Positions 1-32,130 of a stretch of 64,000 nt of DNA are shown here, in pieces. The stretch is from Dudresnaya verticillata (taxonomy: Eukaryota): positions 2,046,001 through 2,110,000 of the forward strand of contig OZ374559.1 in NCBI GenBank assembly GCA_977862235.1, written 5' to 3'. The number at the start of each line of letters is the position of its first letter. Position 1 is the stretch's first letter. A program made the position numbers and the translations under genes. Under the pieces are notes generated by a model. It saw nothing but the letters and a program-made list of their open reading frames with translations, had not been told where the DNA came from and did not search any database.

Positions 1-517
1 CAGTTTCCAGTGTAGAACGTCTGTTTTCACTTCACCTTATTGTCCAAAATATTTTACAGACTTGCATTGGTCTTGGGACGTCAATGCGTGCACAGTACTC
101 GAAGAATTTTTCACGTTTCTGCAGTTCATTTGTCCTTCTGGACATGGCACTTTCAGTCTAGAAATTTCGTTGAAGTAAATGAGAGTCGATGGCAAACCCA
201 CAAAATGTTCATCAGGCATGAACGATGTGAAAGGTTCCTCCTCTTCGCTTAGAATCTGATTCAAATTCGTCCATCATCAGTTACTACATCTGTACTGGAA
301 AGAATAGAAAGCTGAGTGGCACGTGTTATACACGGTAAGGAGGGGCCGCGGCTAGTGCATGGCTCTAAAACCAGCTCTAAAATATCATTGACATATAGTT
401 GAATGCCTTTCCCACTAATTGCATTTCTAATAACTCAGGTTTCGTCTCGAGTTGAATGACCTAGCTATCAGAGTGCTGGTGCAAGGCCGAACCCGTCCGG
501 AATCTCTGCAAACCTTG

Positions 518-624
518 AAGGCATCTCAAAAATATTACACTCTATCTATGTCTTCTGACAATGAGAGGTCTGGCCTGAGAACAGTTATTAAAAAACGCAT
601 TGGCTACCTAATGCATTCATTGTT
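518..624 (+). repeat. Diverged direct repeat of about 105 bp, paired with 4303-4407 within each array-1 unit
   Basis: Both sites share AAGGCATCTCAAAA...TATGTCTTCTG...AATGAGAGGTCT...AGTTATT...TACCTAATGCA.TCATTGTT. Confidence 0.85.
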
Positions 625-3131
625 ATGATATGCCGATAATGTTATATTATGTTAATGGGTTTCAGCATATACGGCTGCAAAATTCCTCTGCGTTCCATTG
701 CTTTATTATATGCGACAGTTCTGGTCCGCTCTAAACAACCACTTTCGATACTAATATCATGCAAAAAACAAATGAGCAACACTGGAGACTCCTGTTGCTA
801 TGTATGAGATAGCAACCTCTATTTATGTACCTTACCAAAAAATAATGATACAATGATACATTGTATACTAAATAAGAAGATTACCAGCATCGGTGCCCAC
901 TTCTGACAGAAAATAAACGTAGCCAAAATAAGGCAAAGTCAACTCAATCTATGAACGAGACCGGGAATGATAGGGACATAGCAACGAACTTCAGATTGAA
1001 GGGCACAGTATGTTATACTACCTTGTTTTGTTATCACTGAATCTCTATAAGGGTTTCAGTCTTGCAAATGGTTGAGAGCATTATGTTCGGAGTCAGTACG
1101 GTAAGAACCATTTTCTTGAGAGTACACACAAAGAGGAATTAAAGAACTATTGCCACAAATTCACAAATTGGGGTTGGGCCTTTGCGCCACCTCTAATCCT
1201 TTTGTGCTTCATATATCTCAGCGTTCTTATCGTACGAAAATAGTTCTATTCACAGGAATTGACTGAGACAACGCATTTAGTCTATGTTGTTGTCTCGGAC
1301 ACTAGCGATGAGAATACACGTTCACTCCAAGTGCCTTACAATGCAATACGTCTACTGGGAATTCTAGAGCCCGCGGTAAACTCTTTCCGCAGCGTGCAAC
1401 AGCAACAAGCATCGAACTGAGGTGCCAGCCGTGTGAAGAGCCGTTGACAGGAAGACGGTCCGACTCGCAAGGTAGCTTTCAGCACGGAGGCGAAACGTTG
1501 CGAGTCGGGCGGAAGAGGAGGGGGGTTTCTGCCAGCATGGAGATGCGCTCGGTACGAGTGGGATCGATGGAACAATGGCGAACATGTCGATGAGGCTGAC
1601 CACTCGTTCTGGGAGGATGCCCTGAAGCTGTTGGTTACGGAGAACCTATTTTTTGCAAAAATGGCGTCAGAGAAAATGGGCGCATATGCAACCGCGGAAG
1701 AGCCCCCTGTTCTGCCTACACAACATCCGTCAGATCCTTCCTACGTCAACATCTGAATTGAAAGATACCCTCGAAGGCCCTCGAAGGTACGACATCATCG
1801 GATAAACCATTGGCTGCTGTACCATGTTGCTACCGAAGAGAGCATTGCATTGCCTTCATACACCATATCGCCCAGCTAGGTCTGTGGACAGGAAGTTTAA
1901 TTTGCGCCGTCAACGATAGTTGCTTTGTAGAAAGTTTTGGATAACGCTACGTATGTTTCAAAGTAGAAAACCCGATTTGTCGCAAACTGAAAGGCGGATA
2001 ATCATGGAAAAAAGATTCGGTACAATGTGACTTTCGCAACACAACTCCGCGTTAGATGGTATGGCCATTCTGCCAGGCTCAATACGCCTTGAGTCGACCT
2101 CGAAATTCAGTAAGTACTCCCGGCCAGAAACATCTTCTGCCAACAAACATTAGCCCTAATTCTATGAATACTGCATCTTCTACTATTCTCGGAAGAGAGG
2201 AGACTCAGAAAATCTTCTGAGACATGCTGAGTCAGGAGAAAGGGAATGATGTAGGCAATTGTAGAAGATTTCTGATCTTGACGGGTTCAATCACCACCCA
2301 TTCGCTCGTTGCAATTTTTCATGTGATGACACATGTTCTCATAGGTTTGTTATAAACCCGATCGACTCTGTCTTGTGTTCTATTTTCATCACTCTCTTCC
2401 CTGTTTGTAATAAAAACAAGTCACTTTCCTTACAACTTGCAACGTGTAGAGCCAGTAACGTTACTGCTTCAGCTGTAGACCCACATATTCAGCTCAGTGA
2501 GTATGTGCTGCAAAGCGTTTTGCTTCTATTGCCAACCCTACACGCGTAACTTGACACTCCAAACAAAGGGGCTCGCGGCTCACACTTGCGCTTTCGTTTC
2601 TCAGCCGAGGAAACGACAAGTCTCCCTAACAATCCATCCATTAAGCTCTAGAGTCTGTTTGATATAAAATTGCATCTCCTCCATTGGCCCCCTCCAAGTC
2701 CATCCGCGGAGAGAGCGTCGATCGCAATGGGGAACGATACAGTCTACGAATGAAGTTTCAACGGAATCAGAGAGTACCAGATCCATGAGAGTTGAGCATA
2801 TGCAAATTGTACTGGCCAGCATATTCTGGACCATCTGGGCTTGCAAAGTAGCAGAACGTGCAGGGTGGGTGTTTCCCTTTTCCGGGTTCCAAGAATAGAA
2901 TTGCAAACATACCAACAGAAACAATGGAGGAATAGAGGATGCCATCCAGAACGGTTTCTTCCTTTTGCAGATCGACTGAATTCACATACAGAGACGCAGT
3001 CCTGATCTTCAACTTCACTGCTTGTAGTTCGGAGGAAGCAAGACAGAAAACGATACTTAAGAAGGTGGGTGACTGCGTTCTCGCTATTGCATTGCGTTCG
3101 CAAGCCACTACTCCTCAGCCTGCCTTCCGAA

Positions 3132-3938
3132 ATGAACACGCGGTTTGTATCTATCCCGATTTTACTGCTTCTCGCAGCGGCGGTTCTGCAACCGGCGGAG
3201 TCGTACAGGAGAAAGCATGAACGTTCAGCAGTCAGGAAGAATAGGGATGACTACCTCAAATCTACCGACGAAAAGATACTTGTGCCGGCTTGTGTAGTTA
3301 TAGGAGCGATTGGTGGTGCAGTTGCGCTGCGCAATCGGGCGTTCAGGTTGGCGTCTATCAGGGCCGCTTCCGAGCTAGAGAACGCCAGTTGGCCGGTTAA
3401 GTTGGCTATTGCGGCACTGGACACGGAAGTGGTCAAGTCGGCACTGGCATGCTTCTGCCAAACGACAAACACTGTGTGCCGCGAGAATCGAAAGAAAGAG
3501 GCGTGCCTTATATGTGCCGGGGTTTGTGGTTTCGCCGAGATGCTTCCGCCGCAGGGCAGGTCGGACATCGCAGACGAGCTGAGCGCGATGGGGAGGCAAT
3601 GCGCATCCGTGCAGACTGGCAGGCAGGTTGTTGTCGGAGGATCACAAGATGCGGTATACGGATCGGTGCGGGATATTGATGACGCCAACTTTTACCGGAA
3701 CAAGGTGAACAACTACATGAAGGATCTGGCGACGAGATGCCCGCAGACCGGTGGAGATTACAGCCCGGATTGTCAGCAGTACTACTCCGGCGTGGAGGCG
3801 CGGAACAAACTGCGACAGAAAGAGTTTGAATATTGGATTCTGAACGACTATAGGGAGGTGATGAAGTCCTATTCGTGTGGGGGCGACTGTCAAGGGATGG
3901 GTGTTCCTGGCGATGGGGGAGAGAAGCCGACCGGTTAG
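3132..3938 (+). CDS. Secreted or membrane-associated 12-Cys protein A (268 aa), unknown family, copy 1
   Basis: ATG at 3132 opens a typical signal peptide (MNTRFVSIPILLLLAAAVLQPAES). The protein aligns end to end with the 259-aa minus-strand paralog, with all 12 Cys conserved. The ORF-track start at 3069 is a non-ATG codon. Confidence 0.88.
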   Translation: MNTRFVSIPILLLLAAAVLQPAESYRRKHERSAVRKNRDDYLKSTDEKILVPACVVIGAIGGAVALRNRAFRLASIRAASELENASWPVKLAIAALDTEVVKSALACFCQTTNTVCRENRKKEACLICAGVCGFAEMLPPQGRSDIADELSAMGRQCASVQTGRQVVVGGSQDAVYGSVRDIDDANFYRNKVNNYMKDLATRCPQTGGDYSPDCQQYYSGVEARNKLRQKEFEYWILNDYREVMKSYSCGGDCQGMGVPGDGGEKPTG

Positions 3939-4164
3939 TCGAGCAACTGTGATCCTCGGCGGAGCCCATTCCTTGAGTACACAATGGGCCTGCGTTATAC
4001 GGAGAGGGGCTACTCTCACGGGGAGCATGGAAACTCCTATGGGAAGTACGTGCAGCATCCAGCATAGGATTGCCACCGGGACGGGAGTAGCCCGCTCTGA
4101 GCTTTAGTAAATTGTTGCGTGCGTTTGCCAAGAATGCTTCTTCCGTGACACCGCAGCCCCCGCT

Positions 4165-4299
4165 ACAACGGGCTACATCTCTGCGAGAGTACACGCGAGA
4201 CGGCGACGCGTATATTGTAGATGGCGGTGCTGCGCTTCCTTCTCGAACGAAATCGCATCGAACGTCTTCACCAGACACACCGTGGTATTGCGTCTCGCA
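4165..4299 (+). repeat. Dispersed repeat of about 135 bp shared with single-copy region 29622-29759
   Basis: ACAACGGGCTACATCTCTGCGAGAGTAC.CGCGAGACGGCGACGCGTATATTGTAGATGGCGGTGCT.CGCTTCCTTCTCGAACGAAA.CGCATCGAACGTCT occurs at both sites with few mismatches. Confidence 0.92.
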
Positions 4300-5084
4300 A
4301 GCAAGGCATCTCAAAAGGACTCCAACGTATGTCTTCTGCAAAATGAGAGGTCTAGCCAGAGAATAGTTATTCAAGTAACGTGTTAGTTACCTAATGCAGT
4401 CATTGTTGGCAATGGCGGTGTCGACCGTGATGAGTTTTCACGGACCCCTAGCTGGTTTCAGGATTTCGGGATGATATCATACAATGGCCTGTTTTAAGCG
4501 TCACTTCTCCCGGACGCTACCAGAGTCCAGTAGCACCGACATACACCCAATACAATACTGGGCTTCTAAACCCATGCTCCGCTAACCCCGAGTTTCAAAA
4601 TCACAATCCCATTTCCACCAGACTTGTGAGACCTCCATCCAATTTAGACATCACTGTAGAAAACAATGATGATGGAGACCTTTATGCATAGGAAAGTCCA
4701 AAGTAGTGAAGGCCCAGTATAAAACAAAAACGTATGGCCTCAGTTGTGAATCAGTACGGGAAAGGGGGTAGCCCGTAATGTTAACCTGAAGAAGGCATGC
4801 AAAAGAAAATCAGTATCACTGAAACAAGACCATCAAGAGTAAACATTCTGTCCGTGTATTTCAACATGTTCCATATAATGGAATAAGCGTTCTCTTTTTC
4901 TTGTTGCAGAGAATTGGTAGATCAAATGTATGATGCTAAACTTTGTTGTTTACGATTGCAACAGGAATAGAATCCGCCAGCATTGGCAATGGGTGGCCTA
5001 GAGCCACTGCCTTGTTCATCAAGGTATATTCTTATTATTCTTATACTGTATGCCTTGCATACGCCCTAGTTGTGTCAAGTTGCC

Positions 5085-5864
5085 CTACTGGCATTGGGAA
5101 TTGCACTTGTAGTGCTTTAGTAGAGCATTCATATCCGCCTTCATCAGTGACAAATACTTTGCGACGCGCACTTTATCGCGATCCTCTGACAGCTTCCCGC
5201 AAAGATCCACACTGTATGCCCCACCACTCTCGTTACACTTTTGGTTCAAGTGATAGATGAAATGTTCCACCCTTGCCGTGTACCACTCAACGCTACCTTG
5301 ACTGTTGACTACGCGAACAGTCGCAGCGCTCTCCACAATCACGTTGCTAGCGGCCGTAGGGCCTTGAAGAATTTGCTTGCCGTTTGTGCGGATTCCTGTG
5401 CATTCGTCCGCTCGATCGATCATCGCAAGGCTCTCCATCATATTCCCGTTCACAGGGTAAGAAGAAGCCACGGAACATGCGGTTGTGCACACGTGGCAAA
5501 CAGTAGCAGTTCGGGTTGCTCCGCATTCTGCGTACGACGCGTTACAGAAGCACCGGAGCAACCTCCGGCCTGGGTCAGTGTTGAGAGCGGCAAATGCCAA
5601 CCGTACCAGACGATTCTGGGCTGCGGCAGCTGCCACCAAGCGTAGCCCCCGAATTCGGAAAGCGAACAGTCCTCCGACGGCCACAGCCACTAAGCACACG
5701 GCTACGGCGTTCTTTTCCTGAGGGGTCTTGAGGTAGTCTGGCTTCTGCTCTACGGCAACGCTATCGTGCCTGGTCTTTGCGGATGCGATGGGTTGAATCA
5801 GCACCGCCACGAACAACATGAGCAGCGGAACAGTGGAAAGGGTTTTGGACATCATGACAGCCAT
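5085..5864 (-). CDS. Secreted or membrane-associated 12-Cys protein B (259 aa), paralog of A, copy 1
   Basis: Signal peptide (MAVMMSKTLSTVPLLMLFVAVLIQPIASA). Shares the DYLK(S/T)xxEK, LAxAALxT, CFC, CxxCxxxC, CxxxGGxYSxD and YxCxxxCQ motifs with protein A. The start could be any of the first three Met codons. Confidence 0.88.
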   Translation of the reverse strand: MAVMMSKTLSTVPLLMLFVAVLIQPIASAKTRHDSVAVEQKPDYLKTPQEKNAVAVCLVAVAVGGLFAFRIRGLRLVAAAAAQNRLVRLAFAALNTDPGRRLLRCFCNASYAECGATRTATVCHVCTTACSVASSYPVNGNMMESLAMIDRADECTGIRTNGKQILQGPTAASNVIVESAATVRVVNSQGSVEWYTARVEHFIYHLNQKCNESGGAYSVDLCGKLSEDRDKVRVAKYLSLMKADMNALLKHYKCNSQCQ

Positions 5865-5868
5865 TGCA

Positions 5869-5917
5869 GTGTGTGTTTGTGTGTGTGTGTGTGTGTGTAT
5901 GTGTGTGTGTGTGTGTG
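5869..5917. repeat. Interrupted (GT)n microsatellite directly upstream of gene B (one per unit)
   Basis: Directly visible. Copy 2 (near 12916-12966) has one extra GT, making that unit 7049 bp. Confidence 0.95.
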
Positions 5918-8900
5918 GGAGGGGGTCAAAATCGTATTACCAGTGCTCACGATGTAGTGGAGCAAGTTGCTTGGTAGCTTTCTGGGCGGACTGTTGATGT
6001 GATGGATCGTGATATTCATAGCCGCAAGTTGTTGCTTTACAATATATACCACTAGGAAGAGCAAGTGCAGGAAGCGGTATGGTGGTATGGTGTTCAACCA
6101 GGAGAACTACCACGTTGTAGTGTAGAAAACGGGGCCCGCTTTGTGGTCTACTCAGTTTAGGATCAGTTCTTTGAAAAGGGGAAGATACGCCTATGGCGTA
6201 GGGGTGAAGTGAGGGCTATGGCATTTGCCGATGAAGGAGTCTTTTCCGGAAGAGTTGTGGGAATGTTTGTATGGGTTTGATTGGTTGAAGGGCGCAAAGT
6301 ATTATTTAGATGAACATTTGTGTTTTTTGTTGCCATCGCAATCGGCTCCTCCTGTGCGAAGGGCGGAGCTCCGACACGTCGCCGATTCACTCCCAACCTC
6401 CCAATTTTCAAAGAGCCCCTTTATCCTCGACAAGACACTCCGCACAGCTCTTCGCCTACGCCAAATGTTGCGCAGTGCATTGAGCACTGCTGCATCCCGC
6501 GAATCTGTGTCCTTCTGTCCTTGGTAGGCCCATATTTGTTGGCTGCAAAGCTCCCATGCATTGTGTGTTCAAAGCGTAAAGCTTCGTAGTGACTGCAGCG
6601 CAGTTATAGCTTTTCGACATAATCCATGTCCTTCAAACACACTGATTCCCGTAATAGATTTCCGCCCTTCTCCTAGCAACATCACCTTAGGATGATGATC
6701 ACAAACTGGGCTACACATGTGGAGACACATAGAGGTGAGCTCTCTCACCTGAGAGATACTATTTTTTCTGTGGGATCCTCGGAAACGTTTTCTGCCTCAT
6801 ACACAGTAATTCAGTGGAAATCTGGATGTCACCGTACCAGTTCTGGCAATCTTTCTCGGCTGCTTAGATTCTTGACGCATATTAAGGCGATACTCCTAGA
6901 TTCTTTTGCATAGGCGTTTAGAGATGCGAAGCGCTAGATTTTACAGAGGAGTGCCTCCTCCTTGGTTATTGCTTCGGGGGAATCATGTATGTATAAATAG
7001 AGGCTGTCTGCAACCACATAGCTAACTTCAAAGTTTCCAAGCGTTAACAGTTTCCAGTGTAGAACGTCTGTTTTCACTTCACCTTATTGTCCAAAATATT
7101 TTACAGACTTGCATTGGTCTTGGGACGTCAATGCGTGCACAGTACTCGAAGAATTTTTCACGTTTCTGCAGTTCATTTGTCCTTCTGGACATGGCACTTT
7201 CAGTCTAGAAATTTCGTTGAAGTAAATGAGAGTCGATGGCAAACCCACAAAATGTTCATCAGGCATGAACGATGTGAAAGGTTCCTCCTCTTCGCTTAGA
7301 ATCTGATTCAAATTCGTCCATCATCAGTTACTACATCTGTACTGGAAAGAATAGAAAGCTGAGTGGCACGTGTTATACACGGTAAGGAGGGGCCGCGGCT
7401 AGTGCATGGCTCTAAAACCAGCTCTAAAATATCATTGACATATAGTTGAATGCCTTTCCCACTAATTGCATTTCTAATAACTCAGGTTTCGTCTCGAGTT
7501 GAATGACCTAGCTATCAGAGTGCTGGTGCAAGGCCGAACCCGTCCGGAATCTCTGCAAACCTTGAAGGCATCTCAAAAATATTACACTCTATCTATGTCT
7601 TCTGACAATGAGAGGTCTGGCCTGAGAACAGTTATTAAAAAACGCATTGGCTACCTAATGCATTCATTGTTATGATATGCCGATAATGTTATATTATGTT
7701 AATGGGTTTCAGCATATACGGCTGCAAAATTCCTCTGCGTTCCATTGCTTTATTATATGCGACAGTTCTGGTCCGCTCTAAACAACCACTTTCGATACTA
7801 ATATCATGCAAAAAACAAATGAGCAACACTGGAGACTCCTGTTGCTATGTATGAGATAGCAACCTCTATTTATGTACCTTACCAAAAAATAATGATACAA
7901 TGATACATTGTATACTAAATAAGAAGATTACCAGCATCGGTGCCCACTTCTGACAGAAAATAAACGTAGCCAAAATAAGGCAAAGTCAACTCAATCTATG
8001 AACGAGACCGGGAATGATAGGGACATAGCAACGAACTTCAGATTGAAGGGCACAGTATGTTATACTACCTTGTTTTGTTATCACTGAATCTCTATAAGGG
8101 TTTCAGTCTTGCAAATGGTTGAGAGCATTATGTTCGGAGTCAGTACGGTAAGAACCATTTTCTTGAGAGTACACACAAAGAGGAATTAAAGAACTATTGC
8201 CACAAATTCACAAATTGGGGTTGGGCCTTTGCGCCACCTCTAATCCTTTTGTGCTTCATATATCTCAGCGTTCTTATCGTACGAAAATAGTTCTATTCAC
8301 AGGAATTGACTGAGACAACGCATTTAGTCTATGTTGTTGTCTCGGACACTAGCGATGAGAATACACGTTCACTCCAAGTGCCTTACAATGCAATACGTCT
8401 ACTGGGAATTCTAGAGCCCGCGGTAAACTCTTTCCGCAGCGTGCAACAGCAACAAGCATCGAACTGAGGTGCCAGCCGTGTGAAGAGCCGTTGACAGGAA
8501 GACGGTCCGACTCGCAAGGTAGCTTTCAGCACGGAGGCGAAACGTTGCGAGTCGGGCGGAAGAGGAGGGGGGTTTCTGCCAGCATGGAGATGCGCTCGGT
8601 ACGAGTGGGATCGATGGAACAATGGCGAACATGTCGATGAGGCTGACCACTCGTTCTGGGAGGATGCCCTGAAGCTGTTGGTTACGGAGAACCTATTTTT
8701 TGCAAAAATGGCGTCAGAGAAAATGGGCGCATATGCAACCGCGGAAGAGCCCCCTGTTCTGCCTACACAACATCCGTCAGATCCTTCCTACGTCAACATC
8801 TGAATTGAAAGATACCCTCGAAGGCCCTCGAAGGTACGACATCATCGGATAAACCATTGGCTGCTGTACCATGTTGCTACCGAAGAGAGCATTGCATTGC

Positions 8901-10178
8901 CTTCATACACCATATCGCCCAGCTAGGTCTGTGGACAGGAAGTTTAATTTGCGCCGTCAACGATAGTTGCTTTGTAGAAAGTTTTGGATAACGCTACGTA
9001 TGTTTCAAAGTAGAAAACCCGATTTGTCGCAAACTGAAAGGCGGATAATCATGGAAAAAAGATTCGGTACAATGTGACTTTCGCAACACAACTCCGCGTT
9101 AGATGGTATGGCCATTCTGCCAGGCTCAATACGCCTTGAGTCGACCTCGAAATTCAGTAAGTACTCCCGGCCAGAAACATCTTCTGCCAACAAACATTAG
9201 CCCTAATTCTATGAATACTGCATCTTCTACTATTCTCGGAAGAGAGGAGACTCAGAAAATCTTCTGAGACATGCTGAGTCAGGAGAAAGGGAATGATGTA
9301 GGCAATTGTAGAAGATTTCTGATCTTGACGGGTTCAATCACCACCCATTCGCTCGTTGCAATTTTTCATGTGATGACACATGTTCTCATAGGTTTGTTAT
9401 AAACCCGATCGACTCTGTCTTGTGTTCTATTTTCATCACTCTCTTCCCTGTTTGTAATAAAAACAAGTCACTTTCCTTACAACTTGCAACGTGTAGAGCC
9501 AGTAACGTTACTGCTTCAGCTGTAGACCCACATATTCAGCTCAGTGAGTATGTGCTGCAAAGCGTTTTGCTTCTATTGCCAACCCTACACGCGTAACTTG
9601 ACACTCCAAACAAAGGGGCTCGCGGCTCACACTTGCGCTTTCGTTTCTCAGCCGAGGAAACGACAAGTCTCCCTAACAATCCATCCATTAAGCTCTAGAG
9701 TCTGTTTGATATAAAATTGCATCTCCTCCATTGGCCCCCTCCAAGTCCATCCGCGGAGAGAGCGTCGATCGCAATGGGGAACGATACAGTCTACGAATGA
9801 AGTTTCAACGGAATCAGAGAGTACCAGATCCATGAGAGTTGAGCATATGCAAATTGTACTGGCCAGCATATTCTGGACCATCTGGGCTTGCAAAGTAGCA
9901 GAACGTGCAGGGTGGGTGTTTCCCTTTTCCGGGTTCCAAGAATAGAATTGCAAACATACCAACAGAAACAATGGAGGAATAGAGGATGCCATCCAGAACG
10001 GTTTCTTCCTTTTGCAGATCGACTGAATTCACATACAGAGACGCAGTCCTGATCTTCAACTTCACTGCTTGTAGTTCGGAGGAAGCAAGACAGAAAACGA
10101 TACTTAAGAAGGTGGGTGACTGCGTTCTCGCTATTGCATTGCGTTCGCAAGCCACTACTCCTCAGCCTGCCTTCCGAA

Positions 10179-10985
10179 ATGAACACGCGGTTTGTATCTA
10201 TCCCGATTTTACTGCTTCTCGCAGCGGCGGTTCTGCAACCGGCGGAGTCGTACAGGAGAAAGCATGAACGTTCAGCAGTCAGGAAGAATAGGGATGACTA
10301 CCTCAAATCTACCGACGAAAAGATACTTGTGCCGGCTTGTGTAGTTATAGGAGCGATTGGTGGTGCAGTTGCGCTGCGCAATCGGGCGTTCAGGTTGGCG
10401 TCTATCAGGGCCGCTTCCGAGCTAGAGAACGCCAGTTGGCCGGTTAAGTTGGCTATTGCGGCACTGGACACGGAAGTGGTCAAGTCGGCACTGGCATGCT
10501 TCTGCCAAACGACAAACACTGTGTGCCGCGAGAATCGAAAGAAAGAGGCGTGCCTTATATGTGCCGGGGTTTGTGGTTTCGCCGAGATGCTTCCGCCGCA
10601 GGGCAGGTCGGACATCGCAGACGAGCTGAGCGCGATGGGGAGGCAATGCGCATCCGTGCAGACTGGCAGGCAGGTTGTTGTCGGAGGATCACAAGATGCG
10701 GTATACGGATCGGTGCGGGATATTGATGACGCCAACTTTTACCGGAACAAGGTGAACAACTACATGAAGGATCTGGCGACGAGATGCCCGCAGACCGGTG
10801 GAGATTACAGCCCGGATTGTCAGCAGTACTACTCCGGCGTGGAGGCGCGGAACAAACTGCGACAGAAAGAGTTTGAATATTGGATTCTGAACGACTATAG
10901 GGAGGTGATGAAGTCCTATTCGTGTGGGGGCGACTGTCAAGGGATGGGTGTTCCTGGCGATGGGGGAGAGAAGCCGACCGGTTAG
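10179..10985 (+). CDS. 12-Cys protein A, copy 2
   Basis: Translation identical to copy 1. Confidence 0.88.
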   Translation: MNTRFVSIPILLLLAAAVLQPAESYRRKHERSAVRKNRDDYLKSTDEKILVPACVVIGAIGGAVALRNRAFRLASIRAASELENASWPVKLAIAALDTEVVKSALACFCQTTNTVCRENRKKEACLICAGVCGFAEMLPPQGRSDIADELSAMGRQCASVQTGRQVVVGGSQDAVYGSVRDIDDANFYRNKVNNYMKDLATRCPQTGGDYSPDCQQYYSGVEARNKLRQKEFEYWILNDYREVMKSYSCGGDCQGMGVPGDGGEKPTG

Positions 10986-12131
10986 TCGAGCAACTGTGAT
11001 CCTCGGCGGAGCCCATTCCTTGAGTACACAATGGGCCTGCGTTATACGGAGAGGGGCTACTCTCACGGGGAGCATGGAAACTCCTATGGGAAGTACGTGC
11101 AGCATCCAGCATAGGATTGCCACCGGGACGGGAGTAGCCCGCTCTGAGCTTTAGTAAATTGTTGCGTGCGTTTGCCAAGAATGCTTCTTCCGTGACACCG
11201 CAGCCCCCGCTACAACGGGCTACATCTCTGCGAGAGTACACGCGAGACGGCGACGCGTATATTGTAGATGGCGGTGCTGCGCTTCCTTCTCGAACGAAAT
11301 CGCATCGAACGTCTTCACCAGACACACCGTGGTATTGCGTCTCGCAAGCAAGGCATCTCAAAAGGACTCCAACGTATGTCTTCTGCAAAATGAGAGGTCT
11401 AGCCAGAGAATAGTTATTCAAGTAACGTGTTAGTTACCTAATGCAGTCATTGTTGGCAATGGCGGTGTCGACCGTGATGAGTTTTCACGGACCCCTAGCT
11501 GGTTTCAGGATTTCGGGATGATATCATACAATGGCCTGTTTTAAGCGTCACTTCTCCCGGACGCTACCAGAGTCCAGTAGCACCGACATACACCCAATAC
11601 AATACTGGGCTTCTAAACCCATGCTCCGCTAACCCCGAGTTTCAAAATCACAATCCCATTTCCACCAGACTTGTGAGACCTCCATCCAATTTAGACATCA
11701 CTGTAGAAAACAATGATGATGGAGACCTTTATGCATAGGAAAGTCCAAAGTAGTGAAGGCCCAGTATAAAACAAAAACGTATGGCCTCAGTTGTGAATCA
11801 GTACGGGAAAGGGGGTAGCCCGTAATGTTAACCTGAAGAAGGCATGCAAAAGAAAATCAGTATCACTGAAACAAGACCATCAAGAGTAAACATTCTGTCC
11901 GTGTATTTCAACATGTTCCATATAATGGAATAAGCGTTCTCTTTTTCTTGTTGCAGAGAATTGGTAGATCAAATGTATGATGCTAAACTTTGTTGTTTAC
12001 GATTGCAACAGGAATAGAATCCGCCAGCATTGGCAATGGGTGGCCTAGAGCCACTGCCTTGTTCATCAAGGTATATTCTTATTATTCTTATACTGTATGC
12101 CTTGCATACGCCCTAGTTGTGTCAAGTTGCC

Positions 12132-12911
12132 CTACTGGCATTGGGAATTGCACTTGTAGTGCTTTAGTAGAGCATTCATATCCGCCTTCATCAGTGACAA
12201 ATACTTTGCGACGCGCACTTTATCGCGATCCTCTGACAGCTTCCCGCAAAGATCCACACTGTATGCCCCACCACTCTCGTTACACTTTTGGTTCAAGTGA
12301 TAGATGAAATGTTCCACCCTTGCCGTGTACCACTCAACGCTACCTTGACTGTTGACTACGCGAACAGTCGCAGCGCTCTCCACAATCACGTTGCTAGCGG
12401 CCGTAGGGCCTTGAAGAATTTGCTTGCCGTTTGTGCGGATTCCTGTGCATTCGTCCGCTCGATCGATCATCGCAAGGCTCTCCATCATATTCCCGTTCAC
12501 AGGGTAAGAAGAAGCCACGGAACATGCGGTTGTGCACACGTGGCAAACAGTAGCAGTTCGGGTTGCTCCGCATTCTGCGTACGACGCGTTACAGAAGCAC
12601 CGGAGCAACCTCCGGCCTGGGTCAGTGTTGAGAGCGGCAAATGCCAACCGTACCAGACGATTCTGGGCTGCGGCAGCTGCCACCAAGCGTAGCCCCCGAA
12701 TTCGGAAAGCGAACAGTCCTCCGACGGCCACAGCCACTAAGCACACGGCTACGGCGTTCTTTTCCTGAGGGGTCTTGAGGTAGTCTGGCTTCTGCTCTAC
12801 GGCAACGCTATCGTGCCTGGTCTTTGCGGATGCGATGGGTTGAATCAGCACCGCCACGAACAACATGAGCAGCGGAACAGTGGAAAGGGTTTTGGACATC
12901 ATGACAGCCAT
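12132..12911 (-). CDS. 12-Cys protein B, copy 2
   Basis: Translation identical to copy 1. Confidence 0.88.
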   Translation of the reverse strand: MAVMMSKTLSTVPLLMLFVAVLIQPIASAKTRHDSVAVEQKPDYLKTPQEKNAVAVCLVAVAVGGLFAFRIRGLRLVAAAAAQNRLVRLAFAALNTDPGRRLLRCFCNASYAECGATRTATVCHVCTTACSVASSYPVNGNMMESLAMIDRADECTGIRTNGKQILQGPTAASNVIVESAATVRVVNSQGSVEWYTARVEHFIYHLNQKCNESGGAYSVDLCGKLSEDRDKVRVAKYLSLMKADMNALLKHYKCNSQCQ

Positions 12912-15900
12912 TGCAGTGTGTGTTTGTGTGTGTGTGTGTGTGTGTATGTGTGTGTGTGTGTGTGTGGGAGGGGGTCAAAATCGTATTACCAGTGCTCACG
13001 ATGTAGTGGAGCAAGTTGCTTGGTAGCTTTCTGGGCGGACTGTTGATGTGATGGATCGTGATATTCATAGCCGCAAGTTGTTGCTTTACAATATATACCA
13101 CTAGGAAGAGCAAGTGCAGGAAGCGGTATGGTGGTATGGTGTTCAACCAGGAGAACTACCACGTTGTAGTGTAGAAAACGGGGCCCGCTTTGTGGTCTAC
13201 TCAGTTTAGGATCAGTTCTTTGAAAAGGGGAAGATACGCCTATGGCGTAGGGGTGAAGTGAGGGCTATGGCATTTGCCGATGAAGGAGTCTTTTCCGGAA
13301 GAGTTGTGGGAATGTTTGTATGGGTTTGATTGGTTGAAGGGCGCAAAGTATTATTTAGATGAACATTTGTGTTTTTTGTTGCCATCGCAATCGGCTCCTC
13401 CTGTGCGAAGGGCGGAGCTCCGACACGTCGCCGATTCACTCCCAACCTCCCAATTTTCAAAGAGCCCCTTTATCCTCGACAAGACACTCCGCACAGCTCT
13501 TCGCCTACGCCAAATGTTGCGCAGTGCATTGAGCACTGCTGCATCCCGCGAATCTGTGTCCTTCTGTCCTTGGTAGGCCCATATTTGTTGGCTGCAAAGC
13601 TCCCATGCATTGTGTGTTCAAAGCGTAAAGCTTCGTAGTGACTGCAGCGCAGTTATAGCTTTTCGACATAATCCATGTCCTTCAAACACACTGATTCCCG
13701 TAATAGATTTCCGCCCTTCTCCTAGCAACATCACCTTAGGATGATGATCACAAACTGGGCTACACATGTGGAGACACATAGAGGTGAGCTCTCTCACCTG
13801 AGAGATACTATTTTTTCTGTGGGATCCTCGGAAACGTTTTCTGCCTCATACACAGTAATTCAGTGGAAATCTGGATGTCACCGTACCAGTTCTGGCAATC
13901 TTTCTCGGCTGCTTAGATTCTTGACGCATATTAAGGCGATACTCCTAGATTCTTTTGCATAGGCGTTTAGAGATGCGAAGCGCTAGATTTTACAGAGGAG
14001 TGCCTCCTCCTTGGTTATTGCTTCGGGGGAATCATGTATGTATAAATAGAGGCTGTCTGCAACCACATAGCTAACTTCAAAGTTTCCAAGCGTTAACAGT
14101 TTCCAGTGTAGAACGTCTGTTTTCACTTCACCTTATTGTCCAAAATATTTTACAGACTTGCATTGGTCTTGGGACGTCAATGCGTGCACAGTACTCGAAG
14201 AATTTTTCACGTTTCTGCAGTTCATTTGTCCTTCTGGACATGGCACTTTCAGTCTAGAAATTTCGTTGAAGTAAATGAGAGTCGATGGCAAACCCACAAA
14301 ATGTTCATCAGGCATGAACGATGTGAAAGGTTCCTCCTCTTCGCTTAGAATCTGATTCAAATTCGTCCATCATCAGTTACTACATCTGTACTGGAAAGAA
14401 TAGAAAGCTGAGTGGCACGTGTTATACACGGTAAGGAGGGGCCGCGGCTAGTGCATGGCTCTAAAACCAGCTCTAAAATATCATTGACATATAGTTGAAT
14501 GCCTTTCCCACTAATTGCATTTCTAATAACTCAGGTTTCGTCTCGAGTTGAATGACCTAGCTATCAGAGTGCTGGTGCAAGGCCGAACCCGTCCGGAATC
14601 TCTGCAAACCTTGAAGGCATCTCAAAAATATTACACTCTATCTATGTCTTCTGACAATGAGAGGTCTGGCCTGAGAACAGTTATTAAAAAACGCATTGGC
14701 TACCTAATGCATTCATTGTTATGATATGCCGATAATGTTATATTATGTTAATGGGTTTCAGCATATACGGCTGCAAAATTCCTCTGCGTTCCATTGCTTT
14801 ATTATATGCGACAGTTCTGGTCCGCTCTAAACAACCACTTTCGATACTAATATCATGCAAAAAACAAATGAGCAACACTGGAGACTCCTGTTGCTATGTA
14901 TGAGATAGCAACCTCTATTTATGTACCTTACCAAAAAATAATGATACAATGATACATTGTATACTAAATAAGAAGATTACCAGCATCGGTGCCCACTTCT
15001 GACAGAAAATAAACGTAGCCAAAATAAGGCAAAGTCAACTCAATCTATGAACGAGACCGGGAATGATAGGGACATAGCAACGAACTTCAGATTGAAGGGC
15101 ACAGTATGTTATACTACCTTGTTTTGTTATCACTGAATCTCTATAAGGGTTTCAGTCTTGCAAATGGTTGAGAGCATTATGTTCGGAGTCAGTACGGTAA
15201 GAACCATTTTCTTGAGAGTACACACAAAGAGGAATTAAAGAACTATTGCCACAAATTCACAAATTGGGGTTGGGCCTTTGCGCCACCTCTAATCCTTTTG
15301 TGCTTCATATATCTCAGCGTTCTTATCGTACGAAAATAGTTCTATTCACAGGAATTGACTGAGACAACGCATTTAGTCTATGTTGTTGTCTCGGACACTA
15401 GCGATGAGAATACACGTTCACTCCAAGTGCCTTACAATGCAATACGTCTACTGGGAATTCTAGAGCCCGCGGTAAACTCTTTCCGCAGCGTGCAACAGCA
15501 ACAAGCATCGAACTGAGGTGCCAGCCGTGTGAAGAGCCGTTGACAGGAAGACGGTCCGACTCGCAAGGTAGCTTTCAGCACGGAGGCGAAACGTTGCGAG
15601 TCGGGCGGAAGAGGAGGGGGATTTCTGCCAGCATGGAGATGCGCTCGGTACGAGTGGGATCGATGGAACAATGGCGAACATGTCGATGAGGCTGACCACT
15701 CGTTCTGGGAGGATGCCCTGAAGCTGTTGGTTACGGAGAACCTATTTTTTGCAAAAATGGCGTCAGAGAAAATGGGCGCATATGCAACCGCGGAAGAGCC
15801 CCCTGTTCTGCCTACACAACATCCGTCAGATCCTTCCTACGTCAACATCTGAATTGAAAGATACCCTCGAAGGCCCTCGAAGGTACGACATCATCGGATA

Positions 15901-17227
15901 AACCATTGGCTGCTGTACCATGTTGCTACCGAAGAGAGCATTGCATTGCCTTCATACACCATATCGCCCAGCTAGGTCTGTGGACAGGAAGTTTAATTTG
16001 CGCCGTCAACGATAGTTGCTTTGTAGAAAGTTTTGGATAACGCTACGTATGTTTCAAAGTAGAAAACCCGATTTGTCGCAAACTGAAAGGCGGATAATCA
16101 TGGAAAAAAGATTCGGTACAATGTGACTTTCGCAACACAACTCCGCGTTAGATGGTATGGCCATTCTGCCAGGCTCAATACGCCTTGAGTCGACCTCGAA
16201 ATTCAGTAAGTACTCCCGGCCAGAAACATCTTCTGCCAACAAACATTAGCCCTAATTCTATGAATACTGCATCTTCTACTATTCTCGGAAGAGAGGAGAC
16301 TCAGAAAATCTTCTGAGACATGCTGAGTCAGGAGAAAGGGAATGATGTAGGCAATTGTAGAAGATTTCTGATCTTGACGGGTTCAATCACCACCCATTCG
16401 CTCGTTGCAATTTTTCATGTGATGACACATGTTCTCATAGGTTTGTTATAAACCCGATCGACTCTGTCTTGTGTTCTATTTTCATCACTCTCTTCCCTGT
16501 TTGTAATAAAAACAAGTCACTTTCCTTACAACTTGCAACGTGTAGAGCCAGTAACGTTACTGCTTCAGCTGTAGACCCACATATTCAGCTCAGTGAGTAT
16601 GTGCTGCAAAGCGTTTTGCTTCTATTGCCAACCCTACACGCGTAACTTGACACTCCAAACAAAGGGGCTCGCGGCTCACACTTGCGCTTTCGTTTCTCAG
16701 CCGAGGAAACGACAAGTCTCCCTAACAATCCATCCATTAAGCTCTAGAGTCTGTTTGATATAAAATTGCATCTCCTCCATTGGCCCCCTCCAAGTCCATC
16801 CGCGGAGAGAGCGTCGATCGCAATGGGGAACGATACAGTCTACGAATGAAGTTTCAACGGAATCAGAGAGTACCAGATCCATGAGAGTTGAGCATATGCA
16901 AATTGTACTGGCCAGCATATTCTGGACCATCTGGGCTTGCAAAGTAGCAGAACGTGCAGGGTGGGTGTTTCCCTTTTCCGGGTTCCAAGAATAGAATTGC
17001 AAACATACCAACAGAAACAATGGAGGAATAGAGGATGCCATCCAGAACGGTTTCTTCCTTTTGCAGATCGACTGAATTCACATACAGAGACGCAGTCCTG
17101 ATCTTCAACTTCACTGCTTGTAGTTCGGAGGAAGCAAGACAGAAAACGATACTTAAGAAGGTGGGTGACTGCGTTCTCGCTATTGCATTGCGTTCGCAAG
17201 CCACTACTCCTCAGCCTGCCTTCCGAA

Positions 17228-18034
17228 ATGAACACGCGGTTTGTATCTATCCCGATTTTACTGCTTCTCGCAGCGGCGGTTCTGCAACCGGCGGAGTCGT
17301 ACAGGAGAAAGCATGAACGTTCAGCAGTCAGGAAGAATAGGGATGACTACCTCAAATCTACCGACGAAAAGATACTTGTGCCGGCTTGTGTAGTTATAGG
17401 AGCGATTGGTGGTGCAGTTGCGCTGCGCAATCGGGCGTTCAGGTTGGCGTCTATCAGGGCCGCTTCCGAGCTAGAGAACGCCAGTTGGCCGGTTAAGTTG
17501 GCTATTGCGGCACTGGACACGGAAGTGGTCAAGTCGGCACTGGCATGCTTCTGCCAAACGACAAACACTGTGTGCCGCGAGAATCGAAAGAAAGAGGCGT
17601 GCCTTATATGTGCCGGGGTTTGTGGTTTCGCCGAGATGCTTCCGCCGCAGGGCAGGTCGGACATCGCAGACGAGCTGAGCGCGATGGGGAGGCAATGCGC
17701 ATCCGTGCAGACTGGCAGGCAGGTTGTTGTCGGAGGATCACAAGATGCGGTATACGGATCGGTGCGGGATATTGATGACGCCAACTTTTACCGGAACAAG
17801 GTGAACAACTACATGAAGGATCTGGCGACGAGATGCCCGCAGACCGGTGGAGATTACAGCCCGGATTGTCAGCAGTACTACTCCGGCGTGGAGGCGCGGA
17901 ACAAACTGCGACAGAAAGAGTTTGAATATTGGATTCTGAACGACTATAGGGAGGTGATGAAGTCCTATTCGTGTGGGGGCGACTGTCAAGGGATGGGTGT
18001 TCCTGGCGATGGGGGAGAGAAGCCGACCGGTTAG
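17228..18034 (+). CDS. 12-Cys protein A, copy 3
   Basis: Translation identical to copy 1. Confidence 0.88.
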   Translation: MNTRFVSIPILLLLAAAVLQPAESYRRKHERSAVRKNRDDYLKSTDEKILVPACVVIGAIGGAVALRNRAFRLASIRAASELENASWPVKLAIAALDTEVVKSALACFCQTTNTVCRENRKKEACLICAGVCGFAEMLPPQGRSDIADELSAMGRQCASVQTGRQVVVGGSQDAVYGSVRDIDDANFYRNKVNNYMKDLATRCPQTGGDYSPDCQQYYSGVEARNKLRQKEFEYWILNDYREVMKSYSCGGDCQGMGVPGDGGEKPTG

Positions 18035-19180
18035 TCGAGCAACTGTGATCCTCGGCGGAGCCCATTCCTTGAGTACACAATGGGCCTGCGTTATACGGAG
18101 AGGGGCTACTCTCACGGGGAGCATGGAAACTCCTATGGGAAGTACGTGCAGCATCCAGCATAGGATTGCCACCGGGACGGGAGTAGCCCGCTCTGAGCTT
18201 TAGTAAATTGTTGCGTGCGTTTGCCAAGAATGCTTCTTCCGTGACACCGCAGCCCCCGCTACAACGGGCTACATCTCTGCGAGAGTACACGCGAGACGGC
18301 GACGCGTATATTGTAGATGGCGGTGCTGCGCTTCCTTCTCGAACGAAATCGCATCGAACGTCTTCACCAGACACACCGTGGTATTGCGTCTCGCAAGCAA
18401 GGCATCTCAAAAGGACTCCAACGTATGTCTTCTGCAAAATGAGAGGTCTAGCCAGAGAATAGTTATTCAAGTAACGTGTTAGTTACCTAATGCAGTCATT
18501 GTTGGCAATGGCGGTGTCGACCGTGATGAGTTTTCACGGACCCCTAGCTGGTTTCAGGATTTCGGGATGATATCATACAATGGCCTGTTTTAAGCGTCAC
18601 TTCTCCCGGACGCTACCAGAGTCCAGTAGCACCGACATACACCCAATACAATACTGGGCTTCTAAACCCATGCTCCGCTAACCCCGAGTTTCAAAATCAC
18701 AATCCCATTTCCACCAGACTTGTGAGACCTCCATCCAATTTAGACATCACTGTAGAAAACAATGATGATGGAGACCTTTATGCATAGGAAAGTCCAAAGT
18801 AGTGAAGGCCCAGTATAAAACAAAAACGTATGGCCTCAGTTGTGAATCAGTACGGGAAAGGGGGTAGCCCGTAATGTTAACCTGAAGAAGGCATGCAAAA
18901 GAAAATCAGTATCACTGAAACAAGACCATCAAGAGTAAACATTCTGTCCGTGTATTTCAACATGTTCCATATAATGGAATAAGCGTTCTCTTTTTCTTGT
19001 TGCAGAGAATTGGTAGATCAAATGTATGATGCTAAACTTTGTTGTTTACGATTGCAACAGGAATAGAATCCGCCAGCATTGGCAATGGGTGGCCTAGAGC
19101 CACTGCCTTGTTCATCAAGGTATATTCTTATTATTCTTATACTGTATGCCTTGCATACGCCCTAGTTGTGTCAAGTTGCC

Positions 19181-19960
19181 CTACTGGCATTGGGAATTGC
19201 ACTTGTAGTGCTTTAGTAGAGCATTCATATCCGCCTTCATCAGTGACAAATACTTTGCGACGCGCACTTTATCGCGATCCTCTGACAGCTTCCCGCAAAG
19301 ATCCACACTGTATGCCCCACCACTCTCGTTACACTTTTGGTTCAAGTGATAGATGAAATGTTCCACCCTTGCCGTGTACCACTCAACGCTACCTTGACTG
19401 TTGACTACGCGAACAGTCGCAGCGCTCTCCACAATCACGTTGCTAGCGGCCGTAGGGCCTTGAAGAATTTGCTTGCCGTTTGTGCGGATTCCTGTGCATT
19501 CGTCCGCTCGATCGATCATCGCAAGGCTCTCCATCATATTCCCGTTCACAGGGTAAGAAGAAGCCACGGAACATGCGGTTGTGCACACGTGGCAAACAGT
19601 AGCAGTTCGGGTTGCTCCGCATTCTGCGTACGACGCGTTACAGAAGCACCGGAGCAACCTCCGGCCTGGGTCAGTGTTGAGAGCGGCAAATGCCAACCGT
19701 ACCAGACGATTCTGGGCTGCGGCAGCTGCCACCAAGCGTAGCCCCCGAATTCGGAAAGCGAACAGTCCTCCGACGGCCACAGCCACTAAGCACACGGCTA
19801 CGGCGTTCTTTTCCTGAGGGGTCTTGAGGTAGTCTGGCTTCTGCTCTACGGCAACGCTATCGTGCCTGGTCTTTGCGGATGCGATGGGTTGAATCAGCAC
19901 CGCCACGAACAACATGAGCAGCGGAACAGTGGAAAGGGTTTTGGACATCATGACAGCCAT
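19181..19960 (-). CDS. 12-Cys protein B, copy 3
   Basis: Translation identical to copy 1. Confidence 0.88.
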   Translation of the reverse strand: MAVMMSKTLSTVPLLMLFVAVLIQPIASAKTRHDSVAVEQKPDYLKTPQEKNAVAVCLVAVAVGGLFAFRIRGLRLVAAAAAQNRLVRLAFAALNTDPGRRLLRCFCNASYAECGATRTATVCHVCTTACSVASSYPVNGNMMESLAMIDRADECTGIRTNGKQILQGPTAASNVIVESAATVRVVNSQGSVEWYTARVEHFIYHLNQKCNESGGAYSVDLCGKLSEDRDKVRVAKYLSLMKADMNALLKHYKCNSQCQ

Positions 19961-29621: not shown

Positions 29622-29759
29622 ACAACGGGCTACATCTCTGCGAGAGTACTCGCGAGACGGCGACGCGTATATTGTAGATGGCGGTGCTACGCTTCCTTCT
29701 CGAACGAAACCGCATCGAACGTCTGCACCAGACGCACCGCCGTCGTATTGCGTCGCGCA
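29622..29759 (+). repeat. Single-copy-region instance of the repeat at 4165-4299
   Basis: Direct sequence match to the array-1 unit. Confidence 0.92.

Positions 29760-32081: not shown

Positions 32082-32130
<49 letters not shown>

What the first reader, a model, noticed from the sequence alone, without database searches (positions are those of the whole stretch)
3132..5864. Convergent pair of anciently diverged 12-Cys paralogs co-amplified as one cassette (possible two-component effector or toxin)
Seen: A (+) and B (-) face each other about 1.15 kb apart. They have diverged strongly but keep all 12 Cys and the motifs DYLKxxxEK, GG, LAxAALxT, CFC, CxxCxxxC, GGxYSxD and YxCxxxCQ. Both have the layout signal peptide, short charged segment, hydrophobic Gly/Ala segment (ILVPACVVIGAIGGAVAL / AVAVCLVAVAVGGLFAF), Arg-rich helix, Cys-rich body. 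They are amplified 1:1 at least 4 times. I recognise no family. Inference: the layout resembles prepro membrane-active proteins, and linked divergent paralogs may act as a heterodimer. A single-pass membrane protein or a gamete/self-recognition pair is an alternative.
Basis: partly seen in the sequence, partly recalled or inferred. Interest (0 to 1): 0.8.

Follow-up and report, generated by a model that had tools for sequence, protein, structure and literature searches.

The report
Amplified orphan 12-cysteine membrane-protein gene pair
Two old, strongly diverged sister genes for cysteine-rich proteins that are predicted to be anchored in a membrane sit tail to tail in a 7-kb block repeated four times almost letter for letter, in what is likely a red-alga genome; they match no known protein family and what they do is untested.

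Summary
A (3132-3938 +, 268 aa) and B (5085-5864 -, 259 aa) are convergent, 1,146 bp apart and 29% identical (E 6e-32). Eleven of 12 Cys are in register and every listed motif is present. The pair lies in a 7,047-bp unit present four times in the window, and the units differ by 2 SNPs and one TG-microsatellite indel. Nucleotide identity by codon position (0.50/0.57/0.34; dS saturated) shows long protein-level constraint followed by very recent amplification. No relative turned up in Pfam, PDB sequences, 1.84 billion protein representatives, a 5.8-billion-protein set, the ESM Atlas, or viral, metagenome and prokaryote contigs, so the family is an orphan. Both proteins have a canonical cleavable signal peptide, a 22-24 aa stub with DYLK..EK, a strongly hydrophobic Gly/Ala/Cys segment (the best-conserved region, 42%) and a ~190-200 aa Cys-rich body predicted to be helical. 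By standard rules that is a type I single-pass membrane protein, not a soluble toxin. The cassette is compositionally foreign: GC3 is 0.61-0.63, against 0.85-0.93 in the adjacent GC-rich, red-alga-like host genes. A second low-GC array follows. Moderately interesting.

The parts
3132..3938 (+). Gene A, copy 1 (268 aa). Signal peptide residues 1-24 (3132-3203); charged stub with DYLKSTDEK, residues 25-47; hydrophobic Gly/Ala/Cys segment, residues 48-66 (3273-3329); Cys-rich body, residues 67-268.
5085..5864 (-). Gene B, copy 1 (259 aa). Signal peptide residues 1-29; stub with DYLKTPQEK, residues 30-51; hydrophobic segment about residues 52-70 (5655-5711); Cys-rich body (5088-5654).
3939..5084 (.). 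1,146-bp spacer between the two convergent stop codons (GC 47.1%). It holds one copy of a ~109-nt repeated element.
10179..10985 (+). Gene A, copy 2 (protein identical to copy 1)
12132..12911 (-). Gene B, copy 2 (protein identical to copy 1)
17228..18034 (+). Gene A, copy 3 (protein identical to copy 1)
19181..19960 (-). Gene B, copy 3 (protein identical to copy 1)
24275..25081 (+). Gene A, copy 4 (protein identical to copy 1)
26228..27007 (-). Gene B, copy 4 (protein identical to copy 1)
1..27686 (.). Tandem array 1: 7,047-bp unit, 3 full units plus a fourth cut at unit position ~6,543. Open at the left edge of the window. GC 47.6%.
5869..5917 (.). Imperfect (TG)n microsatellite directly upstream of B's ATG. 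It is the only length-variable site between units.
4303..4407 (+). ~109-nt element, repeated at 7565-7671 within the B-to-A intergenic region (79% identity, E 6.5e-19, same orientation).
28200..36150 (.). GC-rich host island (67% GC) with GT61, phytochelatin-synthase-like and UDG-like genes (GC3 0.85-0.93). It gives the compositional contrast and the red-alga-like identity.

Best explanation
A and B are two intact, anciently diverged paralogous genes (29% identical, all 12 cysteines kept) lying tail to tail in a 7,047-bp unit repeated four times almost identically, and each is predicted to encode a signal-peptide-bearing single-pass membrane protein whose conserved Gly/Ala/Cys membrane segment would let the two pair up in the membrane.

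Shown:
- The genes, their homology and the Cys register.
- Protein-level constraint since the duplication.
- The near-identity of the four units.
- The absence of any detectable relative or known domain.
- The compositional gap to the neighbouring host genes.

Inferred from general cell-biology rules, not tested:
- The N-terminal segment is a cleaved signal peptide (..AES|Y in A, ..ASA|K in B).
- The second hydrophobic segment is a stop-transfer anchor. This leaves a 22-24-residue stub with the DYLK..EK motif on the outside or in the lumen, and puts the ~190-200-residue Cys-rich body on the cytosolic side.
- Because the membrane segment is the best-conserved region (42% identity, including one Cys and GG), it likely mediates specific helix-helix contact. 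That contact could be homo- or heteromeric.

Inferred about origin: the pair evolved for a long time in a compartment or genome of moderate GC. It was then amplified very recently, or is kept uniform by gene conversion, as a macrosatellite-like array beside GC-rich genes of a red-alga-like host. What the proteins do biochemically is not known.
For: Real genes under constraint:
- Both ORFs are intact in all 4 copies.
- A against B gives E 6e-32 and a score 48 sd above shuffles.
- Over 244 aligned codons, nucleotide identity by codon position is 0.50/0.57/0.34, with dN 0.74 and dS 2.89 (saturated).
- 11 of 12 Cys are in register.

Membrane layout:
- Hydropathy peaks lie at residues 1-24 and 48-66 in A, and 1-29 and 52-70 in B.
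- Small residues occupy positions -3 and -1 of the putative cleavage sites, and basic residues follow the second segment directly (net +3 over 15 residues in both).
- Identity by region is highest in the hydrophobic segment (8 of 19).

Orphan status:
- No Pfam family at E <= 1, or <= 10 for the bodies alone.
- 0 hits for A and for the A+B profile among the 5.8 billion proteins.
- Exhaustive phmmer of B against 1,835,955,588 representatives gave 2 hits at E <= 1e-3. Both are summed weak matches to long repetitive bacterial proteins with no Cys aligned.
- Nothing in PDB sequences, the ESM Atlas, viral, metagenome or prokaryote contigs.

Recent amplification: 2 SNPs plus one 2-bp indel among four units.

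Compositional contrast:
- GC3 is 0.63 (A) and 0.61 (B), against 0.85-0.93 in four neighbouring ORFs.
- The unit is 47.6% GC and the host island 67.1%.

Host identity:
- For the GT61 gene, 19 proteins scored E <= 1e-5. Only 2 of the 19 carry an organism name, and both are red algae (Agarophyton chilense, Gracilariopsis chorda).
- Bangiales genomes are 64-68% GC and other red algae 37-57% (PMC7423979, section 10, passages read).
Against: - The topology rests on hand rules only. No SignalP or DeepTMHMM was available.
- A type I topology puts 11 invariant Cys in the reducing cytosol. Their spacing (mostly single, widely spaced Cys, one CxxC, two Cx3C, no conserved His) looks more like disulfides of a lumenal or extracellular helical domain than like zinc sites. 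So either the topology call or the role assigned to the Cys may be wrong.
- No expression data exist for either gene, and there is no test of A-B contact.
- Both AF2 models are low-confidence, so even 'helical' is weak.
- With no reads, the joins between the low-GC arrays and the GC-rich island are unverified.
- No named Bangiales protein appeared among the GT61 hits, so the host assignment is only 'red-alga-like'.
Confidence: 0.45

Rival explanations
1. The 7-kb unit is a head-to-tail concatemer of a foreign or selfish DNA (plasmid-like or virus-derived) integrated in the nuclear genome, or co-assembled with it. On this reading A and B are the element's own membrane proteins rather than host genes. 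This concerns origin and is compatible with the membrane-protein reading.
For: - GC3 of A and B is 0.61-0.63, against 0.85-0.93 in adjacent host genes, despite ancient divergence of A from B.
- The units are near-identical, as expected for a recent concatemer.
- A second, unrelated low-GC array of 4,909-bp units lies on the other side of the island.
- Red algae are reported to carry small plasmids with transcribed ORFs of unknown function, some with ORFs duplicated within one plasmid. Plasmid names in that paper (e.g. Gch7220, Gro4970, Pp6859) suggest sizes of about 3.4-7.2 kb (PMC4814812, passages read).
Against: - No replicase, polymerase, integrase, transposase or capsid domain was found: 0 of 85 stop-to-stop ORFs (>= 60 aa) from the rest of both units and the left junction hit Pfam at E <= 0.01.
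- A and B have no relative among public proteins, a set that should include the deposited red-algal plasmid ORFs.
- No hit in viral contigs.
- About 450-500 bp of unique low-GC sequence lies between each array and the island, so the low-GC compartment is not purely the repeat.
Confidence: 0.25
2. A and B are secreted prepro proteins whose hydrophobic Gly/Ala segment is a membrane-inserting element. They act together as a two-component membrane-active toxin or effector.
For: - Signal peptides are present.
- The Cys pattern suits a disulfide-stapled helical domain.
- Each body has an odd number of Cys (11), which would allow an inter-chain disulfide.
- The neighbouring array encodes a small, basic ORF with a signal peptide and two 6-Cys modules. 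Amplified secretory Cys-rich genes therefore cluster here.
Against: - There is no similarity to any toxin, pore-former or saposin-like family.
- A dibasic processing site before the hydrophobic segment is seen in A but is not conserved in B.
- The hydrophobic segment scores well above the usual membrane-span level and is followed by basic residues, as in a stop-transfer anchor.
- No activity, expression or interface data exist.
Confidence: 0.1
3. The arrays do not belong to the red-alga-like genome. The contig is an assembly chimera joining repeats of another organism (an epibiont, endophyte or contaminant) to an 8-kb algal fragment.
For: - GC steps sharply at about 28.2 kb and 36.2 kb.
- Codon usage differs.
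- Neither the proteins nor the DNA are found in any public set searched.
Against: - Two independent chimeric joins around one 8-kb piece are unlikely.
- The arrays keep SNPs and a microsatellite variant, as real long-read-resolved copies do.
- Non-coding stretches inside the island also drop to 51-54% GC.
Confidence: 0.1
4. A and B are a cell-surface recognition pair (gamete or self/non-self), kept linked so that matching alleles are inherited together.
For: Only the linkage of two diverged paralogs that enter the secretory pathway.
Against: - The exposed part under the favoured topology is only 22-24 residues.
- Four identical copies show none of the diversity expected at recognition loci.
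- There is no match to known gamete-recognition domains in Pfam.
Confidence: 0.05

Closest known systems
Short-ectodomain type I membrane subunits (FXYD/phospholemman-type regulators; CD3-zeta/DAP12-type adaptors). Recalled from general knowledge, not from a call.
   Same: The layout is shared: a cleaved signal peptide, a very short conserved outer stub, a membrane helix with conserved small residues (and a Cys near its outer end in A and B), and basic residues just inside. Such proteins work by pairing in the membrane.
   Different: No sequence or Pfam relation was found. A and B carry a large ~190-200-residue body with 11 Cys, which these families lack. The topology of A and B is not tested.
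Linked, diverged paralog pairs that form heterodimers (e.g. trypanosome ESAG6/ESAG7 transferrin receptor). Recalled.
   Same: Two diverged paralogs with conserved Cys are kept adjacent and copied together.
   Different: There is no homology. ESAG6/7 are same-strand genes in expression sites, whereas A and B are convergent. Heterodimer formation is not tested for A and B.
Small plasmids of red algae (Pp6859, Pp6427, Gch7220, Gro4970 and others; PMC4814812, passages read).
   Same: The size class is comparable (7.0 and 4.9 kb units here). They carry ORFs of unknown function that are specific to red algae, and duplicated ORFs occur within one element. The host appears to be a red alga.
   Different: No shared protein was found and no replicase or polymerase-like ORF. 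The units here sit as tandem arrays joined to chromosomal genes. Circular forms were not tested.
Gene-bearing macrosatellite arrays (e.g. human D4Z4/DUX4 and RS447/USP17 arrays). Recalled.
   Same: Kilobase-scale units, each with intact ORFs, are repeated head to tail at very high identity.
   Different: The unit here holds a convergent pair of old paralogs for secretory-pathway proteins. The organism and the proteins are unrelated.

Membership tests
Any curated protein family (Pfam-A) | Profile match at or near the gathering score | tested here: not met
   A had 0 families at E <= 1. B's only match was SRP68 at E 0.13 (11.6 bits, cut-off 26.1). The bodies alone, scanned at E <= 10, gave nothing more.
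Saposin-like / other membrane-active prepro proteins | SapB-type six-Cys helical domain recognisable by profile or by fold | tested here: not met
   There was no SapB or other profile match and no PDB sequence match (best E 1). A fold comparison was not possible because the models had pLDDT 44.8 and 35.3.
Saposin-like / other membrane-active prepro proteins | Conserved propeptide processing site ahead of the active part | tested here: not met
   The basic cluster (RKNR) before the hydrophobic segment in A aligns with VEQ-K in B.
Red-algal plasmid | Homology to known plasmid ORFs or a replication protein | tested here: not met
   0 of 85 ORFs from the rest of the units hit Pfam. A, B and their profile found no public relatives.
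Red-algal plasmid | Extrachromosomal circular molecule | not testable with these tools
   No reads were available: no run was listed and no genome is held for this window.
Type I single-pass membrane protein (topology class, not a homology family) | Cleavable N-terminal signal peptide | tested here: inconclusive
   There is a hydrophobic core of ~15-20 residues, and small residues lie at -3 and -1 (AES|Y in A, ASA|K in B). This is rule-based only; no trained predictor was available.
Type I single-pass membrane protein (topology class, not a homology family) | One stop-transfer hydrophobic span followed by a positive cytosolic flank | tested here: inconclusive
   The 19-residue hydropathy mean reaches 2.15 (A) and 2.36 (B). 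Net charge over the next 15 residues is +3 in both. The stub before the span is also net positive (+3 in A, +1 in B).
Heterodimeric two-component system | Predicted or measured A-B interface better than controls | not testable with these tools

The most novel reading that the evidence does not exclude
The two arrays are nuclear-integrated concatemers of previously unseen extrachromosomal elements of a GC-rich red alga. On this reading A and B are the two subunits of a new, disulfide-stapled helical membrane-inserting complex that the element uses, for example to kill, exclude or mark cells. That would make it a two-component membrane-active system with no relative in any database.
Probability: 0.08. 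Interest if true: 0.8.

Novelty: new variant of a known kind. Interest (0 to 1): 0.4.

Why it matters
If A and B are expressed, they define a protein family with no detectable relative among about 15 billion public proteins. The family has an unusual build: a signal peptide, a tiny conserved stub, a conserved membrane helix and a body with 11 Cys. The two genes stayed paired through very long divergence and were then amplified as one block.

The clash between the predicted cytosolic position of the body and its disulfide-like Cys pattern is a concrete, testable puzzle.

The compositional gap to the neighbouring host genes makes the locus a candidate case of foreign or extrachromosomal DNA settling in a red-algal nucleus. 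The plasmid paper read here states that nuclear data were insufficient to judge this (PMC4814812, conclusions passage).

Without expression or activity data it remains an uncharacterised lineage-specific gene pair, which is a common class of finding.

Tried and rejected
Homology searches
- Pfam on A, B, the bodies and four neighbouring ORFs.
- The 5.8-billion-protein word search with A and with the A+B profile: none.
- Exhaustive phmmer of B: 2 hits. I rejected both after inspection. P0002 is a 2,216-aa Big_13 repeat protein in which 14 weak stretches are summed. P0001 is a 5,610-aa protein matched in three repeated stretches. Neither aligns a Cys.
- ESM Atlas for A and B: no usable hit.
- PDB sequences with the profile: best E 1.
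- Viral contigs, metagenome contigs and prokaryote genome contigs: pattern matches only, and none was confirmed.

Structure
- AF2 of full-length A with a 2-row alignment gave pLDDT 44.8 and pTM 0.29.
- AF2 of the B body gave pLDDT 35.3 and pTM 0.24.
- No fold search was run, because such models give meaningless matches.

Complex

Expression and occurrence
- The look-up of sequencing runs: none was listed and no RNA holder was listed.
- No whole genome is held for this window.

Other checks
- No internal duplication within A or B: half against half scores fall below the shuffle means.
- No DNA similarity between the 7,047-bp and 4,909-bp units.
- The border segments next to the arrays are unique.
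- Rfam gathering scan of the window: 0 matches.
- Tandem Repeats Finder found nothing, because its longest period is 500 bp. The arrays were found with the repeat finder instead.
- The bacterial promoter/terminator scan gave counts no higher than shuffles and does not apply to a eukaryote.
- The antisense 288-aa ORF 3508..4374 has no counterpart opposite B, so I take it as spurious.

Earlier findings
- Nothing for this genome or for these sequences. One unrelated Cyanidioschyzon note came up.

Literature
- Three searches found nothing relevant: red alga + macrosatellite (0 papers); Bangiales + endogenous viral elements + giant virus (0 papers); tandemly duplicated Cys-rich families in Rhodophyta or Neopyropia (listings only).
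- On that basis I found no printed description of this family or of such arrays. Subscription journals were not searched.
Full report
**What is there**

The window opens inside a tandem array of 7,047-bp units, with starts at 1, 7048, 14097 and 21144. Aligning the four units shows only three differences across the first ~6,543 positions. These are two SNPs (unit positions 1508 and 1525, both intergenic) and a 2-bp length change in a TG microsatellite. After that the fourth unit leaves the repeat, at about window 27,687.

Each unit holds gene A on the + strand (first ATG 3132, stop 3938; 268 aa) and gene B on the - strand (5864 down to 5085; 259 aa). The two are convergent, with 1,146 bp between the stop codons. 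tblastn finds exactly four A and four B copies, all identical in protein sequence. It finds no other diverged copy in the 64 kb.

**Are A and B really related, and are they real genes?**

- BLASTP gives 78 of 265 identities (29%), E 6e-32.
- The local alignment score is 300, against 33.7 +/- 5.5 for shuffles.
- Each protein has 12 Cys. Eleven fall in the same alignment column, and one is displaced by a single column.
- Over 244 aligned codons, nucleotide identity is 0.50, 0.57 and 0.34 at codon positions 1, 2 and 3. Nei-Gojobori dN is 0.74 and dS is 2.89, which is saturated.

Third positions are therefore essentially randomised while first and second positions are held. This is the signature of long purifying selection on both proteins since a very old duplication. 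It contrasts with the near-identity of the four units, which points to very recent amplification or continuing homogenisation. There is no internal duplication within either protein.

**Protein layout**

Both proteins begin with a hydrophobic core that has small residues at -3 and -1 of a plausible cleavage site (..AES|Y in A..ASA|K in B). Next comes a 22-24-residue charged stub ending in DYLK..EK. Then comes a 19-residue Gly/Ala/Val segment with one conserved Cys and GG, with mean hydropathy up to 2.15 in A and 2.36 in B. Basic residues follow (net +3 over 15 residues in both), and then a body of ~190-200 residues with the remaining 11 Cys.

Identity is spread evenly at 23-35% and is highest, 8 of 19, in the hydrophobic segment.

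By the standard rules (a cleaved signal peptide followed by a stop-transfer span with a positive flank) this is a type I single-pass membrane protein. It would have a tiny outer stub and a cytosolic body. That is an inference; no trained predictor was available.

The inference sits uneasily with the Cys pattern. The pattern is CxC, C, CxxCxxxC, three lone Cys, then CxxxC, with no conserved His. To me this looks more like disulfides in an oxidising compartment than like metal sites. I regard the topology as the key open question.

The 'prepro' reading needs a processing site. The basic cluster that A has ahead of the hydrophobic segment is not conserved in B.

**Is it a known family?**

No.

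- Pfam gives nothing for A. For B it gives only a sub-threshold SRP68 match (E 0.13, 11.6 bits against a cut-off of 26.1), and the bodies alone give nothing more.
- The word-indexed search of 5.8 billion proteins finds nothing for A or for the A+B profile.
- An exhaustive phmmer of B against 1,835,955,588 cluster representatives returns two proteins at E <= 1e-3. One is a 5,610-aa protein matched in three repeated stretches. The other is a 2,216-aa Big_13 repeat protein matched in 14 stretches. In neither is a Cys aligned, and I treat both as summed chance matches.
- PDB sequences, the ESM Atlas, viral contigs, metagenome contigs and prokaryote genome contigs give nothing.
- The proteins themselves are also absent from these sets, so the source genome's proteins are evidently not in them.
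- AF2 with the two-row alignment gave pLDDT 44.8 for A and 35.3 for the B body. The models are all-helical but unusable, so no fold search was made.

**Context**

Array 1 is 47.6% GC. From about 28.2 to 36.15 kb lies a 67% GC island. It carries a GT61 glycosyltransferase gene, a phytochelatin-synthase-like ORF and a UDG-like ORF.

The GT61 protein has 19 relatives at E <= 1e-5, the best at 61% identity. Only 2 of the 19 carry an organism name, and both are red algae of the Gracilariales.

The island's ORFs have GC3 of 0.85-0.93, against 0.63 and 0.61 for A and B. According to PMC7423979 (section 10, passages read), Bangiales genomes are 64-68% GC (71% in coding regions) and other red algae are 37-57%. 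A recent Porphyra assembly paper used 55-75% GC as its nuclear filter (bioRxiv 10.64898/2026.05.14.725108, passages read). The host is thus red-alga-like with Bangiales-like composition, though no named Bangiales hit was seen.

A and B diverged long ago and still have moderate GC3. I infer that they spent most of their history outside the host's GC-driving regime. That means either another genome or element, or a non-recombining compartment.

From 36,654 to the window end lies a second, unrelated array of 4,909-bp units: 5.6 copies with one SNP. It has its own small Cys-rich ORF with a signal peptide.

Scanning 85 stop-to-stop ORFs of >= 60 aa, taken from the rest of both units and the left junction, gave 0 Pfam hits at E <= 0.01. 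There is therefore no replicase, integrase, transposase or capsid remnant to tie the arrays to a known mobile element.

Red-algal plasmids of comparable size, with transcribed ORFs of unknown function, are described (PMC4814812, passages read). Nothing here is homologous to public proteins, so that link rests only on size, host and composition.

**What could not be done**

- No sequencing run was listed for the cassette, so expression and the assembly joins are untested.
- No whole genome is held, so I could not ask whether further copies or single genes occur elsewhere.

**Verdict**

The best-supported reading is an orphan pair of ancient paralogs for predicted signal-peptide-bearing, single-pass membrane proteins with a Cys-rich body. 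They are carried on a compositionally foreign 7-kb unit that was amplified very recently beside red-alga-like host genes. Pairing through the conserved membrane segment is plausible but inferred.

The toxin or effector reading is not excluded but has no positive support. A foreign-element origin is a serious possibility. An assembly chimera cannot be ruled out.

The finding is moderately interesting. It is a truly unmatched family with a concrete topological puzzle and an odd genomic setting, but no functional evidence is obtainable here.

Noticed in passing
window 36654-64000; ORF 40659-41006 (+) and its copies at +4909 steps: A second tandem array has 4,909-bp units, 5.6 copies in the window, only 1 SNP, and runs off the right edge. 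Each unit carries a 115-aa ORF with a signal-peptide-like start. The ORF then has two tandem six-Cys modules, each ending in CC, and is very rich in Arg and Lys. By recall only, the framework is defensin-like. There is no Pfam or PDB match. GC by codon position is 0.46/0.60/0.45, which is not a typical coding signature.
   Followed up: partly
window 4303-4407 and 7565-7671 (and the same places in the other units): A ~109-nt element is present twice per 7-kb unit in the same orientation (79% identity, E 6.5e-19). One copy lies ~365 nt past A's stop codon and the other in the long B-to-A intergenic region. It could be a shared 3'-end or regulatory element, or a relic of an older duplication. No A- or B-like coding remnant lies next to the second copy.
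   Followed up: partly
window 29568-31426 (+): The phytochelatin-synthase/C39-like ORF (29568-30758) overlaps, in another frame, a GC3-0.93 ORF (30668-31426). This suggests one host gene interrupted by a small intron, a frameshift or an assembly error.
   Followed up: no
window 31700-33600: This is an extremely GC-rich stretch (to 84% in 250-bp windows) with long open frames on both strands. It also has homopolymeric Arg, Ala, Pro and Gly runs around the UDG-like ORF (31877-32851). Most of these frames are probably by-products of composition.
   Followed up: no
window 27687-28200 and 36150-36653: About 450-500 bp of unique, low-GC sequence lies between each array and the GC-rich island. It has no similarity elsewhere in the window, so the low-GC compartments are slightly larger than the repeats themselves.
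   Followed up: partly
window 3508-4374 (-): A 288-aa Ser/Pro/Arg-rich ORF lies antisense to the 3' half of A and runs into the spacer. It has no counterpart opposite B and is probably spurious.
   Followed up: partly
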